Assembly: GCF_031769215.1 (NCBI RefSeq)
Contig: NW_026781864.1
Span: 806,001-870,000, forward strand
Direction: 5' to 3'
DNA length: 64,000 nucleotides
From: Ylistrum balloti
Lineage: Eukaryota
Shown here: positions 1-15,000 of the stretch, piece by piece
How positions within the stretch are numbered: position 1 is the first letter of the stretch
Layout of the letters: every line of letters begins with the position of its first letter
Position numbers: made by a program

Positions 1-3000
1 ATTCATGTGAATATGAGTCAATCCAAGTATGTACTGTTACGTTTCCGAATTAGAACAAGTTTTAACAACAACGGAACCCCAAGGCATACTTAGAAGTGTC
101 AAACATCTAGAACATAACAAGATAACGTGTCTTTAATTCAAATTGTACGAAAATATAAGAAGGCCATCAGTAATTTGCTTCGTACATACCAACTTCATAT
201 GATATTGCTAAGATTTGTTGTTTTGTCTGCAAGTCATTTAGGGACCATGTTTATGAAGGTTTTTGATGCGTGTTAGTATGCCTGGTGGTTCCTTTGTTTT
301 TCACATTGTGTCCTTGATTATTTCTTGTTGATATTAACTATATGAGTTTAAGCCCCAAAATAATGTAGACAAAAACTGAATAAATTTAGTTCCCAATACA
401 TGCATGTAATCATAATCTAAATTCGATATACTGAATGACAAAAAGCTAGATTTATCTGGCCTTTCATGAAAAAATACAAGGACAATAAGACCGGGTGTTC
501 CGGAAGAGTAACGTCATCTGTTTTTAAGCGAGGCAAAAGAAGGAATAAATTTGCATTTGAAGAAAATGCATAAGGATTCAAAATCAAGTATTCAGTTTAA
601 ATCAGAGCATATTTCACGTTCCATCTTCATGACGAGCAAATCAGCTGATAACTCAGACCAAACCCAAAACATCAATAAGCAGCGACAAATCAAGCTGGTG
701 ATGAAATAAAATAATATCGTCATGAACTACAACAAATTTAGTTGTCAATGTGATATCGTAAGCTACAGTAGATTTGGTAGTCAATATAATGTTGATATAA
801 TCTACAATAAGTTTAGTTGTCAATATCGTGTTAACAGATTTATAACACATTCAGCTGTCGTTATAAGATAAACATATGCATGACTCATTACCGAAGAGAC
901 ATCCACAGTCAATGTAGATATAGACATATTAACATTTATGTTGCAGGATAATCGTTATTGAGTACTGATAAGAGCAGCTGATTTATAAACATAATGTTTC
1001 AAACCAAAAACCGTCTCTCTCATCTTTCAGTCTTAATGAAAATCGATTTTGGCATGACTTCCTATTCAAATCGTAACGAGAATTTCTTAAAAGTTGCCAT
1101 TTGACGTTAGTCGTCGAACATGTAACAATAGAAACATTGATCCCGTAACAACAACACGACTGCCCCACCATGTGGTAAAGTCTTTTGGCATTGAAACTTC
1201 CCTGGGATCTGAATTGTTAACTTGAATGTGAGAATCAAGTGAATTGTTTTATCCGAAACACGAAAATAACACCCAGTATAATCCTTGTTTTTTGTGTTAT
1301 GCTTTTGTGTGTGTTTTTAAAATATTGCTCTGTGTATTTTTGCTTGAAATTGGAACGTCATCGTCATCAACCCCACCCTTACATACCCAACAAAACATAA
1401 GGAAGTCAGACTGTATGAATTCCACCCAAAATGCATCATTTTTGCTCTATCATAAATAGTGTAATATTTGCTGGGAATGGATGCCTTATTAAAGTATATA
1501 TTACAGAACTCGTTCTGTTAGTGCTACAGTTACAAGCCCCTGAAGGTACGTGTAGTGGTTTTTATAAAGTAGAATGGTAGCAATATGCTATACCCTTATT
1601 TTGCATCAATTCTTAGAAGCGTCAGGCTTGAATGTCAATAATTCTAACAGAGTACTCGAGATTTTCCCCAATAACAATGCCGCCTAGATGTCTCGGCTCT
1701 GTCTGCTAAACAAATAAACGCCAGCCAGGTATTTTGTTTGAAGTGCCGACCCACAGGTAAGAAAATCAATTAGTCTAGGAGGTTATCTGATCACAATTAG
1801 CAAATTTGTATCAAATGACTGCCGATATGGACAATTATAGAAATTCTTCACTCACCCAATTCCTTTAGGACTTCATCAAAATTCTCACTTCTATCCAGTT
1901 TCCATTTTCCACCTAATTCTGCACGTATTTCCTCCAGAGCCATTTTGGAACGTTTTACAATGATCGATGTTAAGAGTTGTTAAATCCCTTTTAAGTATTT
2001 ATAACCAAACGCTCTTTTATGAAGCAGGCGATAAGGTCTCTTTTGATTTTCTGTAACTCACAGATTTGTTATAAGTTGCACGCGAGAATTGCAGACGACA
2101 GATGTCGATTTCAGAGAATTATCCCACAAGAAATATCGCGGGAACCTGCATTTACGCCAGACGACAGATTAATGTCTGAATAGTATACGTAGACGAGAAC
2201 AAACAGCAGAGTTGATATGGATCCTGTGTCGTTACAGAATTACAATAAAGTCTAGTTGACACATAGATGTAAAATTCAAATCTCGGTGTCACTTATTCTG
2301 TAATTATCTTCTGTATTGCATTGCAGCTAGCGCTTAACATTTGAACCGTAAGTATATGATTTAGTTCTCGGTTTCATATGTCAATCACAGATGAAGTAAT
2401 GTCACAGGGTGAATATGCTTATCATTCTAAATACGTTAATCCCATTGTGACAAATCATGACAAAAATCCGTACATCCGTTAATATCGTCCTGTCATTAAC
2501 TCACGTATCTGTAGATACTGATGTCAATGCCGACCTTAGTGAGACACAATATTAGCACTCCTTAAACAATTAGACAAAAGCTGGCATCATCACCAAGTAT
2601 TGTAGTAAAAGGTGATAGAACACGAACAGGTACAAATACTACAAACGCACACTTGTGTGATGCAAAACATGCGAAACAGGTACACTATTCCACAATCCCA
2701 CAGCTAATTAAATGTACTTGATATGACGTTCACATAGACCAGATTTGTACTAAAAGACTCTGTTTTCACCGGAGAGAATCTCGTAACATGTTCGCTTACA
2801 TAACGTGCACGCAATGTAACGTATCTACTGAGATTTGGGGCCGAGGAGGGGTTACATGAGGTGCTACACAATGTGTGGTGTATGTAGGTAAGACCTACTC
2901 CAAGGGACCTTATACTACAGTAATCATTCAGCTGGAAAGTTTCATGGGGAGATAGAAAATTTTAGATAGCTTTAGATATACGAAGGTCTCTTGAACAATT

Positions 3001-12000: not shown

Positions 12001-15000
12001 ATATAATTGATATGCTAACCACTGTGAGTACTCAGAAGGCTTCTGTATAATTGATATACTAATCACAGTGAGTACTCAGAGGGTTTCCATATGATTGATA
12101 TAATAATACCTGTGAGTACTCAGAGGATTCCTATATAATTGATATACTGGTCACTGTGAGTAATCTAGCTCAGAACGAAGAGTTGTCTTTATAATTGATA
12201 AACGAATCCCTGTGACTTCTCTAGCTCAGACCAGAGGTTTGTTTGTATAGTGAATATACCAGCCCTTGTTAGTACCTTATAGCTCGGAGGGTTGTGAATA
12301 CAACAAGCAAATATATCAGTCCCTGAGAGTACTCTCGCACGGATCAGAGGGTTGACGTCACAATATTTGTTATAATAATAAAACACAGTATAAAACTACC
12401 TCCCTGTGAATGTTTTTGTTATACAGCCATTGTGATGTTGGTCATACATTTAATAATAGTAAATATTTGATATTTAGGTTATGGTGTTATGGTGATCACT
12501 TCTAGCTGACCATTGTCGTACATATGTTTAACTCTAATTACGACGATAGCACGAGGTGCACGTTATCTTAACTGCTTCCGGTTGATGCTGATTCGGATAT
12601 CACGATTATTGATGACGTATGTCCGTCTAGACGTGTTGCCTTAATGACATAATACACTCCGTGGATGATCATTAACTGTTATTGACAATTTCACGTGAGG
12701 ACAGAAAGTATGATTTTATATGCTACAGATAACATAGTGAATAAGGTATTAATCGATAACATGAAATCGGACAAGTGGTCTCATTACGTTATATTTAAAT
12801 TATGTAATAGTACAAAATAATCAATTGCACTCCATGTATGTGTTGTAAAGCAGGCTCAAGTTACATAATTTTGCTTCAGGCAGTTTACAGACCAACCTAC
12901 ACACACCATATTCATATTGTTATCTCCGATATACAAATGTACTTTCGTCAATGAAATCAATTAATTAAAACAAAACACGGATTTATCAATAGGCTACCTT
13001 TTACTGCAGGTAAACTGGACTTTTAATTGTAATTATAATCAATGCACTTTTGGAAACCACACTAGGGTACATGATATATACAAAGGGTATAATACAACAC
13101 AATGTAAAACAACACGAAGAAGCATCACTCACATCGACTTCAGATCGCTTTAGAAAAACATGTCTATTTGAGATAATTGAGACAAATCAACCTCTTTATA
13201 ACGGTTCAATACCCTAATGTAAGGAACAAGCCCCGAATATCACTTGATGATGGAAGCAGCTTAGCTACTATCTAGAAATGGGAAATTCACAACTGCAATT
13301 CTGCCTTGGTAACGTTATACAATTAAAGGTTGGTGTGTGAGGCTGACGTTGAAGAGTTGGTCTTTCCTTTTCCAAACACAATATCTAATGGACAAGCTCA
13401 ATATAATTCATGTATCTAAAGACAATAATATATCTACAGGTGTAAATGAAGGTTTTAGCAAGGACTTCGTCAGGGTAACACTTTCAGGAAAAAAGGGTCG
13501 GTCAAGAGAGAGAAACATGGGTATTTAAAATTCGTATGCAAATAGCCAATTGGAAAATATTGCCACCCTATCAACGAAGATATTGACAATTTGAAATTTG
13601 ATCAATCACGAGATCTCATCTTGAACAAATTTCTTTATGAAATATTTTTGTTACTACTATTTTTATTTTACAAAGTCATATATTTTCTTCAATTACATTA
13701 AATCGTAGTACAATCATGAGTGAGTTAGTCTCTTCATACCTAACTTCTCGTTAACAAATATCCCTCTAATTGGTTTGGTAAAAAAAAGTCTTCCTTCCTA
13801 GTACAACATTGAGCTCATTAGGTGAGGCGATTTCGGATTTCACTTTGGTGTCTTAATTGAACTAAAAATAAACAAATAAATCGTTTTATTTAACAAAAGA
13901 AAGCAACATTTTAAAATAATGCAAATATATTGAAAATGAAATGATACTGAATGAAAAAAACACGAAATTAAGAAGGATAAAAATAATATTAAAAAAATGA
14001 GAGCAGTTATATGCATTTCATTAAAGAAAATAAAAAGGAACTTAAAATAGAACATTAGTATCATGAATTGGGTCCTCTTTACCTACCCAAGGTTTCCAAG
14101 AATTCGTCGAAATTTTCGCTTCGGTCCAGTGTCCACTTTCCTCCAATTTCTTGTTCAATTTCCTTTAGAACTTCTGCAGACATTGTATGATATAAATCCA
14201 ACTAACACGTTCAGCGCTTGTCAATTCAGTAAATTAAACTTAATTAATTGGTGAGATAAATGAATCAATTTGTCACAATCAATGTAGTTTTAAAGAAAAT
14301 CTTAGCACGTGTCATTCACTCTTTCCCCATACAACAAGCACTGTAGCTGTGGAAAAACCGACACAATGTCAGTGTCTAAATCATCATAAATTATACAATT
14401 AAATAACGCCGCCAGCAAACGATCTTTACAGAATAACTTTGAAAAAAAAAACTGAATGTCATATCAATATTTTATGAAAATTGTATGCAAACGTTTACTT
14501 TCAAAATACGTTCTAAACAAACACATTACAGTGAAAAGTTGTCACTTGTAGCAGAAGAATATTGATAGTATTTAAAACATGTCTATTGATCGAGGTCTAT
14601 ATCAAATGAATGGGTTGCCATGTGAGATATCCCAGCCTTTTGTCAATATTTACGATGCAGTTTGATGTATTAAGGAGGATTGCACCATTAAGTAAAAGTC
14701 CAGATACGAAATGAGTAGAAACCCTTCTTTCACATCTGTAGACATGCACAACGTTTCTGCTATACTTTTTTTACCTCTGAATTGAAGAATTCAGAAACAG
14801 AACGATATATTTGACACACAAGATTTTGATAATGAACAATGTGTCAGTATGTTATAAATTCTCAATAATGATCTCTAATTGTTTGGTGAATCGTTTGTTT
14901 ATTATTAATTTAATTTTATTTTTATTTCTTTCAAAGTTTTAAAAGAAAAACAATATGAGAAAGTCTTTATCGGTATAATGTATGTTCGGCCGTATTGATG

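What the first reader, a model, noticed from the sequence alone, without database searches (positions are those of the whole stretch)
1856..14183. Two intact FABP first exons 12 kb apart with no exons 2-4 seen between them: possible alternative N-terminal cassettes
Seen: both exons have an ATG, the GKW.LDRSENFDE motif and a phase-1 GT donor at the same codon. Across GKWxLDRSENFDE (13 codons) they differ at 7 synonymous positions and 1 amino acid, which looks like purifying selection on both. Established: FABP genes normally have 4 exons, with intron 1 at this Gly. I scanned minus-strand AG|G acceptors between 1943 and 14087 by eye and found no FABP exon 2-4. Inference: the upstream exon may splice across the second one onto shared exons left of the window, giving two promoters and two beta-A/helix-I N-termini from one gene, which would be unusual for FABPs.
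Basis: partly seen in the sequence, partly recalled or inferred. Interest (0 to 1): 0.68.

Follow-up and report, generated by a model that had tools for sequence, protein, structure and literature searches.

The report
Two FABP first exons, downstream exons unseen
Two old, still-conserved copies of the first coding exon of a fatty-acid-binding-protein gene lie 12 kb apart with no later exons detectable between them, so they may be alternative starts of one gene, but the window ends too soon to prove it.

Summary
On the minus strand, exon A (1943..1856) and exon B (14183..14087) each have an ATG, the GKWxLDRSENFDE motif and a phase-1 GT donor after the same Leu codon. A profile of the two peptides hits only FABP/CRABP-family chains in the PDB (54 of 54 at E<=0.01, best 4e-8). 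Synonymous sites are saturated while the core differs little at protein level (dN 0.13; Fisher p 2e-8), so the duplication is old and both copies have been constrained.

I found no FABP exon 2-4 from 14086 down to 1, using Pfam and PDB scans of all three frames, a phase-1 acceptor scan, motif patterns and single-ORF tests. Power is limited. The embedded exon A control scored only E=0.29, and Pfam does not detect the exon-1 peptides alone.

My best reading (about 0.45) is two alternative first exons spliced to shared exons left of the window. This is untestable here, because only 1.85 kb lies downstream of exon A. Rivals are tandem paralogues with missed exons, a recently orphaned exon, or an assembly fault. 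Alternative N-terminal exons are already reported for a beetle FABP gene, so novelty is modest.

The parts
14087..14183 (-). Exon B: upstream FABP first coding exon, MSAEVLKEIEQEIGGKWTLDRSENFDEFLETL plus the first base (G) of the next codon
   Evidence: Read directly. PDB phmmer best hit 9dxi_A 'Fatty acid-binding protein homolog 3', E=5.1e-5, covering the N-terminal extension as well. GC 0.41 against about 0.33 for the window.
14085..14086 (-). Phase-1 GT donor of exon B (G|GTAGGT)
   Evidence: Read directly.
1856..1943 (-). Exon A: downstream FABP first coding exon, MALEEIRAELGGKWKLDRSENFDEVLKEL plus the first base (G) of the next codon
   Evidence: Read directly. PDB phmmer best hit 5gge_A (named a fatty acid binding protein, isoform B), E=0.0015. 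GC 0.39.
1854..1855 (-). Phase-1 GT donor of exon A (G|GTGAGT)
   Evidence: Read directly.
1996..2003 (-). TATAAATA, 60 nt upstream of the exon A ATG: a candidate TATA box, which would give exon A its own promoter
   Evidence: The motif occurs 23 times in the window on both strands, against 11.3 expected from shuffles, or roughly one per 5-6 kb per strand. A copy at promoter distance from the ATG is therefore suggestive. Function is not shown.
14247..14311 (-). CCAAT (14251..14247) and CACGTG (14311..14306) upstream of exon B, with no well-placed TATA box. The promoter of exon B is unresolved
   Evidence: Seen by eye and not tested against chance. Weak evidence.
1944..14086 (-). The 12,143-base interval between the two exons. 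It holds minisatellites and decayed dispersed repeats and no detectable FABP exon. Under the favoured reading it is the first part of exon B's intron
   Evidence: There is a 42-bp minisatellite at 5301-6925 and a 44-bp array at 11695-12162. A 40-nt repeat core lies at 4724, 11129 and 13253. The stretch 10708-11243 matches four other places in the window at 60-65%. The FABP searches were negative.
1..1853 (-). All that the window holds of exon A's intron 1. It contains no detectable exon 2, so that intron is longer than 1.85 kb
   Evidence: ORFs 656-850, 986-1216, 1110-1316 and 1300-1446 each tested alone: 0 families.

Best explanation
The two exons are anciently duplicated, homologous first coding exons of one FABP locus. 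Each supplies its own start codon, a short N-terminal extension, strand beta-A and helix alpha-I. Each ends in the same phase-1 donor.

Transcription starting at exon A splices its donor (1855) to FABP exon 2 somewhere left of the window. Transcription starting at exon B splices its donor (14086) across the 12-kb interval and across exon A to the same exon 2. Exon A is skipped because, as a first exon, it has no usable acceptor.

The result would be two FABP isoforms with the same barrel. They would differ in the N-terminal extension and in four positions of the helix alpha-I region: K/T, V/F, K/E and E/T.

Shown here: the two exons, their homology, their identical boundaries, the signature of purifying selection, and the lack of detectable exons 2-4 in between. 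Inferred: the shared downstream exons, the two promoters, and any difference in function.
For: 1. Both exons have the same boundaries and the same phase.

2. They belong to the FABP family. A profile of the two peptides gave 54 of 54 PDB hits at E<=0.01 that are FABP, CRABP or other members of that family, the best at 4e-8.

3. The duplication is old and both copies have been constrained.
- Over 29 codons, Sd is 15.2 of S 17.2 and Nd is 15.8 of N 69.8, Fisher p=1e-6.
- In the 19-codon core, pS is about 1 (saturated) and dN is 0.13, p=2e-8.
- Nucleotide identity is only 56 of 87.
- An exon that had been useless for long would not keep its ATG, open frame, motif and donor at this divergence.

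4. No FABP exon was found downstream of exon B within the window.
- Pfam on all three X-read minus frames of 1..14199 gave no lipocalin/FABP family.
- PDB phmmer on all three frames of 1..14086 gave only exon A itself as an FABP hit.
- The phase-1 acceptor scan gave 6 candidates with 40 or more open codons, none FABP-like.
- All 14 non-satellite stop-free stretches of 57 or more codons, the canonical exon 2 size, were tested alone against Pfam with no FABP hit.

5. Exon A has a TATAAATA 60 nt upstream of its ATG, so it looks like a true first exon with its own promoter.

6. There is a precedent. TcFABP8 variants have an identical C-terminus and alternative N-terminal regions, one from an alternative first exon, and all are modelled with a complete barrel and helix cap.
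Against: - No downstream FABP exon of either copy is in the window, so sharing is pure inference.
- Tandem FABP paralogues are common in invertebrates (up to 15 loci in one species). They are the more frequent explanation a priori.
- My negative search is not strong. The embedded exon A control reached only 10.8 bits, E=0.29. Pfam detected neither exon-1 peptide alone, so it has no positive control here. Exons 3 and 4 are recalled to be about 34 and 17 codons, and such short exons would probably be missed anyway.
- One Lottia FABP gene is listed with five exons (Table 2), so a split exon 2 is possible.
- Exon B has no convincing TATA box.
- No nucleotide similarity links the flanks of the two exons, so the duplication unit cannot be traced.
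Confidence: 0.45

Rival explanations
1. These are ordinary tandem paralogues. Exon B belongs to a complete FABP gene whose exons 2-4 lie inside the 12-kb interval but escaped my searches, because they are diverged or cut by extra introns. Exon A starts the next gene, whose remaining exons lie left of the window.
For: Tandem and multi-copy FABP loci are common in invertebrates, and the four-exon form dominates but is not universal. My searches have limited power: the control reached E=0.29 and Pfam was blind to exon 1 alone. Pieces of 20-30 codons would not be detected.
Against: Exon B is very FABP-like, so its partner exons should be too. Even so:
- three frames by Pfam and three by PDB phmmer found nothing;
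- none of the 14 stop-free stretches long enough to hold a canonical exon 2 gave an FABP hit when tested alone;
- motif patterns found nothing;
- the only clean phase-1 AG..GT open stretch lies in a dispersed repeat and is not FABP-like.
Confidence: 0.25
2. One copy, most simply exon B, is an orphaned exon. It would be a relic of a partial duplication, or of a paralogue whose 3' part was deleted recently, and it is no longer part of any productive mRNA.
For: There are no downstream exons in 12 kb. Exon B lacks a clear TATA box. The interval is full of satellites and decayed repeats, which points to turnover in this region.
Against: At saturated synonymous divergence the protein core is still 16 of 19 identical, and the ATG, frame and donor are intact. 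Loss of function would therefore have to be recent compared with the age of the duplication.
Confidence: 0.15
3. The arrangement is an assembly or arrangement artefact. This could be a misjoin, a collapse or a rearranged scaffold that has separated exon B from its own exons 2-4. It could also be two interleaved genes.
For: The region is very rich in minisatellites (one search reports 30 rows, several of which are overlapping descriptions of the same array), and such sequence is prone to misassembly.
Against: The window has no N run or gap. The two exons differ at 31 of 87 bases, so they are not haplotype copies. Nothing in the window marks a breakpoint.
Confidence: 0.1

Closest known systems
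Tribolium castaneum TcFABP8 splice variants (bioRxiv 10.64898/2026.09.17.752344; passages and section 2.3 read)
   Same: It is one FABP locus that gives variants with an identical C-terminus and alternative N-terminal regions. One variant uses an alternative first exon. All are modelled with a complete barrel and helix-turn-helix cap.
   Different: In the beetle the transcripts are verified; here nothing is. I could not see the figure or the supplements, so I do not know whether the beetle's alternative first exon is a homologous duplicate with the same boundary, as the two exons here are.
Canonical four-exon FABP genes in multi-copy or tandem families (Zheng et al. 2013, PMC3796463; passages and the alternative-splicing section read)
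   Same: The N-terminal motif matches. The paper states that most invertebrate FABPs have matched intron positions. The exact position and phase of intron 1 in other species are my recollection.
   Different: A canonical gene would have its exons 2-4 after exon B. None was detectable in 12 kb.
PDB 9dxi_A, 'Fatty acid-binding protein homolog 3' (I recall this as Caenorhabditis elegans LBP-3; the organism is not given by the tool)
   Same: It shares not only the LDRSENFDEFL core but also an acidic N-terminal extension before the GK(W/Y) motif. The profile E-value is 4e-8 over positions 1-29.
   Different: Only 29 residues can be compared. As recalled, the nematode LBP-1/2/3 proteins are secreted with a signal peptide. 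The two exons here start directly with M-A/S and show no hydrophobic leader by eye. I ran no signal-peptide predictor.
Tandem-duplicated exon substitution and variable first-exon arrays. For PMC9741552 and PMC9013439 I saw the search listing and abstract only. UGT1A and the clustered protocadherins are recalled.
   Same: These are homologous exons in tandem with identical phase, of which one is used per transcript. In variable first-exon arrays each exon has its own promoter and splices to common downstream exons.
   Different: Only two copies are seen here, 12 kb apart. Neither usage nor common exons have been shown.

Membership tests
Cytosolic fatty-acid-binding protein family (FABP, CRABP and relatives) | N-terminal beta-A / helix alpha-I sequence signature (G-x-W ... 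S-x-N-F-D/E ... L-G) | tested here: met
   Exon A alone has best hit 5gge_A at E=0.0015. Exon B alone has best hit 9dxi_A at E=5.1e-5. The two-sequence profile gave 54 of 54 PDB hits at E<=0.01 that carry FABP, CRABP, P2 myelin, Der f 13, ReP1-NCXSQ or lipid-binding-protein names.
Cytosolic fatty-acid-binding protein family (FABP, CRABP and relatives) | Intron 1 in phase 1 in the codon that follows helix alpha-I (...L-G|) | tested here: met
   Both exons end TTG G|GT. That this position is the conserved one is my recollection, and it agrees with the statement of matched intron positions in PMC3796463.
Cytosolic fatty-acid-binding protein family (FABP, CRABP and relatives) | [quoted passage not shown] | tested here: inconclusive
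   No such exons were found in the window on the gene's strand. They may lie left of the window.
Cytosolic fatty-acid-binding protein family (FABP, CRABP and relatives) | Carboxylate-binding residues of the last strands (Arg ... Arg-x-Tyr; recalled) | not testable with these tools
   The exon that would carry them is not in the window.
Cytosolic fatty-acid-binding protein family (FABP, CRABP and relatives) | Pfam PF00061 / PF14651 match at the gathering score | tested here: not met
   Both exon-1 peptides alone gave 0 families at E<=10. This is expected for 29-32 residues and does not argue against membership.
Alternative (variable) first exons of one gene | Two or more homologous first exons in tandem on one strand, each with a start codon and a donor in the same phase | tested here: met
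Alternative (variable) first exons of one gene | A separate promoter for each first exon | tested here: inconclusive
   Exon A has a TATAAATA 60 nt upstream of its ATG. Exon B has only CCAAT and CACGTG, seen by eye. No start-site data are available.
Alternative (variable) first exons of one gene | Common downstream exons used by both, shown by transcripts | not testable with these tools
   The downstream exons are outside the window. No transcript or eukaryotic genome collection was on hand.
Tandem complete FABP paralogues | Each first exon is followed by its own exons 2-4 before the next gene starts | tested here: not met
   For exon B, nothing FABP-like was found in 1944-14086. Power is limited (control E=0.29). 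For exon A this is not testable.

The most novel reading that the evidence does not exclude
An FABP locus outside the insects has kept two homologous, promoter-bearing first exons for so long that their synonymous sites are saturated. Each exon gives a different N-terminal extension and helix alpha-I on one shared barrel. This would be a small variable-first-exon array that tunes the part of the protein at the mouth of the ligand pocket, or its targeting. More copies might lie outside the window.
Probability: 0.4. Interest if true: 0.45.

Novelty: new member of a known kind. Interest (0 to 1): 0.3.

Why it matters
If the two exons are alternative starts of one gene, the animal makes two FABP isoforms that differ only in the N-terminal extension and the first helix. 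As recalled, that helix belongs to the helix-turn-helix cap thought to govern ligand entry and membrane contact. The pair would then be a natural experiment on what that segment does.

It would also show that the layout reported for a beetle FABP gene is older or more widespread. If instead they are ordinary paralogues or a relic, the finding is routine. In either case it warns annotators that exon B could easily be dropped or mis-joined.

Tried and rejected
1. **Whole-frame Pfam translation.** I then read the frames with X at stops.

2. **Out-of-frame exon A query.** My exon A query was out of frame because of a one-base coordinate slip. Only the exon B query of that call counts.

3. **Recalled FABP motif patterns.**
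   - One search found nothing on the minus strand below 16000.
   - One search covered the whole window on both strands and gave 32 scattered hits that form no cluster.

4. **159-nt open stretch 11064..10906.** It has an AG before it, a GT after it and phase 1 at both ends. It could in principle be spliced in frame after either first exon.
   - I rejected it as an FABP exon. It is not FABP-like (only sub-threshold DNTTIP1/HRI2 matches).
   - It lies inside a decayed dispersed repeat, with 60-65% matches at 24877-24657, 20860-21021, 17129-17373 and 4660-4813.
   - Its 'NPQEFQETL' resemblance to exon B has E=3.9, which is chance level.

5. **ORF 2707-2961 (-).** It contains 'SLGVGL', which recalls the exon 1/2 junction of FABPs. 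It gave 0 Pfam families and 0 PDB hits at E<=10, so I take it as chance.

6. **Composition-ranked open stretches.** Ten were tested alone against Pfam and gave 0 families.

7. **Sub-threshold matches treated as spurious.**
   - Tlde1_dom.
   - FTO_NTD, inside the satellite.
   - NarK-like transporters and two others.
   - DUF1836, inside the satellite.
   - Five weak hits.

8. **Atlas search with exon B.** It gave only weak leads: the first hit at 0.95 is an unnamed cluster, and lipocalin-bearing clusters appear at 0.86 and 0.78. I give it no weight. The Atlas was unreachable, and the ORF 10892-11125 query was not repeated.

9. **RNA searches.** Rfam gave 0 matches and the tRNA scan gave 0 genes.

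10. **Flank comparison.** A nucleotide comparison of 1-4000 with the window found no similarity between the flanks of the two exons.

11. **Human origin.** I do not take the contig for human.
    - GC is about 0.33 and the window is dense with minisatellites.
    - For each exon peptide alone, the best PDB match is not a chain I take for human: exon A best matches an entry I recall as the Drosophila FABP, and exon B an entry I recall as nematode. Human FABP and CRABP chains do appear lower in those lists.

12. **Not scanned or not available.**
    - Not scanned with Pfam or PDB: the minus strand of 24161-64000 and the plus strand of 9991-64000. These had only tblastn with exon B, the motif patterns and ORFs of 90 aa or more.
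The genome collection holds only bacteria and archaea and was not used.
    - I therefore could not check orthologues, annotated isoforms or this species' own FABP proteins.
    - Paper supplements and figures were not visible.
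Full report
**What is there**

- Exon A runs from its ATG at 1943 to 1856 and ends TTG G|GTGAGT.
- Exon B runs from its ATG at 14183 to 14087 and ends TTG G|GTAGGT.
- The peptides are MALEEIRAELGGKWKLDRSENFDEVLKEL(G) and MSAEVLKEIEQEIGGKWTLDRSENFDEFLETL(G).
- They align with one three-residue gap near the N-terminus and share 20 invariant columns.
- The window has no N and is AT-rich, with GC about 0.33. The two exons have GC 0.39 and 0.41.

**Is it more than chance, and is it FABP?**

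- With the exon B peptide, tblastn finds exon A at E=3e-10. The next hit in the 64 kb is at E=1.4, so the window holds exactly two copies. My exon A query in that call was out of frame by a coordinate slip and does not count.
- Each peptide alone hits fatty-acid-binding proteins first in the PDB. Exon A matches 5gge_A at E=0.0015. Exon B matches 9dxi_A at E=5.1e-5.
- A profile of the two peptides gives 54 hits at E<=0.01. All 54 carry names of the FABP/CRABP family, and the best is 9dxi_A at 4e-8.
- That best match also covers the acidic N-terminal extension before the GKW motif.
- Pfam gives nothing for the 29- and 32-residue peptides alone, which is unsurprising at that length.

**Age and selection**

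- Over 29 aligned codons there are 15.2 synonymous differences on 17.2 synonymous sites, and 15.8 replacements on 69.8 sites. Fisher p=1e-6.
- In the 19-codon core from GGKW to the donor, synonymous sites are saturated (pS about 1) while dN is 0.13, p=2e-8.
- The nine codons of the N-terminal extension show no such contrast (p=0.66).
- Nucleotide identity is 56 of 87. A comparison of 1-4000 with the window found no similarity linking the flanks of the two exons.
- The duplication is therefore old. The protein-level conservation, the intact ATGs, the open frames and the donors mean that both copies have been constrained for most of the time since it happened.

**Search for exons 2-4**

I searched exon by exon and frame by frame.

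1. Pfam was run on all three minus-strand frames of 1..14199, with stops read as X. It gave no lipocalin/FABP family, only sub-threshold matches that I treat as spurious.
2. PDB phmmer was run on all three frames of 1..14086. The only FABP hit is exon A itself, at 10.8 bits and E=0.29, against 21.1 bits when searched alone.
   - This serves as a positive control, and it shows that embedding costs about 10 bits.
   - An exon 2 of about 57 codons should still have been visible.
   - Exons 3 and 4, or pieces of a split exon 2, might not be.
3. Recalled FABP motif patterns found nothing on the gene's strand below 16000 and no cluster anywhere in the window.
4. I scanned every AG that is followed, in phase 1, by at least 40 open codons and preceded by at least 12 pyrimidines in 20. 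This gave six candidates, none FABP-like.
5. I tested open stretches alone against Pfam.
   - This covered all 14 non-satellite stop-free stretches of 57 or more codons in the interval.
   - It also covered the stretches ranked highest by composition, including four ORFs left of exon A.
   - None gave an FABP hit.
6. Two look-alikes were followed up and dropped.
   - The stretch 11064..10906 is a 159-nt AG..GT open stretch with phase 1 at both ends. It lies in a decayed dispersed repeat.
   - ORF 2707-2961 contains 'SLGVGL' but gives no Pfam or PDB hit.
7. Two neighbouring stretches were also negative in Pfam: the next 10 kb upstream on the same strand (14171-24160) and the plus strand of 1-9990.

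**What fills the interval**

- A 42-bp minisatellite of 38.7 copies lies at 5301-6925, and a 44-bp array at 11695-12162.
- A 40-nt core occurs three times, at 4724, 11129 and 13253.
- Further decayed dispersed repeats are present.

**Promoters**

- Exon A has a TATAAATA at 2003..1996, 60 nt upstream of its ATG.
- The motif occurs 23 times in the window on both strands, so a copy at that distance is suggestive.
- Exon A also has A at -3 and G at +4 around its ATG.
- Exon B has only a CCAAT and a CACGTG upstream, seen by eye, and a TTTATAT that sits too close to the ATG to serve as its TATA box.

**Interpretation**

Exon B ends in phase 1 after 32 codons, so it cannot make a protein alone. It has clearly been kept by selection, so it should be spliced to FABP exons downstream. 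Within the window none is detectable before exon A or in the 1.85 kb after it.

- The simplest consistent layout is two alternative first exons that join common exons left of the window. Exon A would be skipped in transcripts that start at exon B. I give this 0.45.
- I keep ordinary tandem paralogues with missed exons at 0.25. That arrangement is much commoner a priori and my negative search has limited power.
- A recently orphaned exon gets 0.15.
- An assembly or arrangement fault in this satellite-rich stretch gets 0.10.

**Comparison with what is known**

- Zheng et al. 2013 (PMC3796463; passages and the alternative-splicing section read) report that the four-exon structure dominates in invertebrates. 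Table 2 lists Lottia genes with four exons and one with five. They also report alternative splicing of FABP genes in six species, by exon skipping, intron retention and trans-splicing.
- A 2026 preprint on Tribolium (10.64898/2026.09.17.752344; passages and section 2.3 read) describes TcFABP8 variants with an identical C-terminus and alternative N-terminal regions. One variant uses an alternative first exon, and all are modelled as complete FABP folds.
- My other searches were: 'fatty acid-binding protein' with 'alternative first exon'; FABP with 'alternative promoter', 'first exon' and 'isoform'; and 'fatty acid-binding protein' with 'mutually exclusive exons' and 'tandem exon duplication', requiring at least two of the three terms. 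The listings showed no further FABP case. I read only listings and abstract openings for those.
- The layout proposed here would therefore be a further, unverified member of a known kind.

**Limits**

- There is no transcript data, no neighbouring sequence and no eukaryotic genome or protein collection.
- I do not take the contig for human, given its base composition and satellite content. The best PDB match of each exon peptide alone is also not a chain I take for human.

Noticed in passing
window 5301-6925: A 42-bp minisatellite with 38.7 copies and 94% matches. One minus-strand frame stays open through it for 560 codons (5256-6935). This is a repeat artefact, not a gene, and it attracts spurious sub-threshold Pfam matches.
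   Followed up: partly
window 55842-59300, also 18427-19810, 22315-22953, 51832-52712, 42422-43112: The window is unusually dense in minisatellites. There is a 29-bp unit over about 3.4 kb, a 23-bp unit over 1.4 kb, a 91-bp unit x7 at 98% matches, a 59-bp unit x14.9 and a 37-bp unit x18.8. One search reports 30 rows in all, and several of them are overlapping descriptions of the same array.
   Followed up: no
window about 43220-43320 (+), inside ORF 42803-43351: An exon-like stretch encodes a 4Fe-4S ferredoxin-type motif (PF00037, E=3.7e-9). By recollection it resembles the NDUFS8 subunit of complex I. The same open frame runs straight out of the 37-bp minisatellite.
   Followed up: partly
window 4724-4763, 11129-11168, 13253-13292 and 10708-11243: A 40-nt core occurs three times in the same orientation inside the interval. 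Around the middle copy is a decayed dispersed repeat with 60-65% matches at 24877-24657, 20860-21021, 17129-17373 and 4660-4813. The copies translate to an '...IVNFPFL...'-like peptide. I recall this from an uncharacterised repeated gene family of marine invertebrates, which no call supports.
   Followed up: partly
window 10906-11064 (-): A 159-nt open stretch has an AG before it, a GT after it and phase 1 at both ends, so it could be spliced in frame after either FABP first exon. It encodes a charged peptide that looks helical by eye. It lies in the dispersed repeat above and has no family match. It is probably not an exon.
   Followed up: yes
window 47189-47569 (-) and 59531-59824 (-): Two cysteine-rich open stretches of 126 and 97 codons contain runs of CC and CxC. 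They have no Pfam family above noise.
   Followed up: partly
window 14088-14183 and 1857-1943 (-): Both FABP exons carry an acidic extension of 10-13 residues, probably helical, before the GKW motif. This extension also aligns with the N-terminus of PDB chain 9dxi_A. In the conserved core, the estimated synonymous differences (11.5) slightly exceed the 11.0 synonymous sites. That is even more than the 75% expected at saturation. The numbers are too small to interpret.
   Followed up: partly
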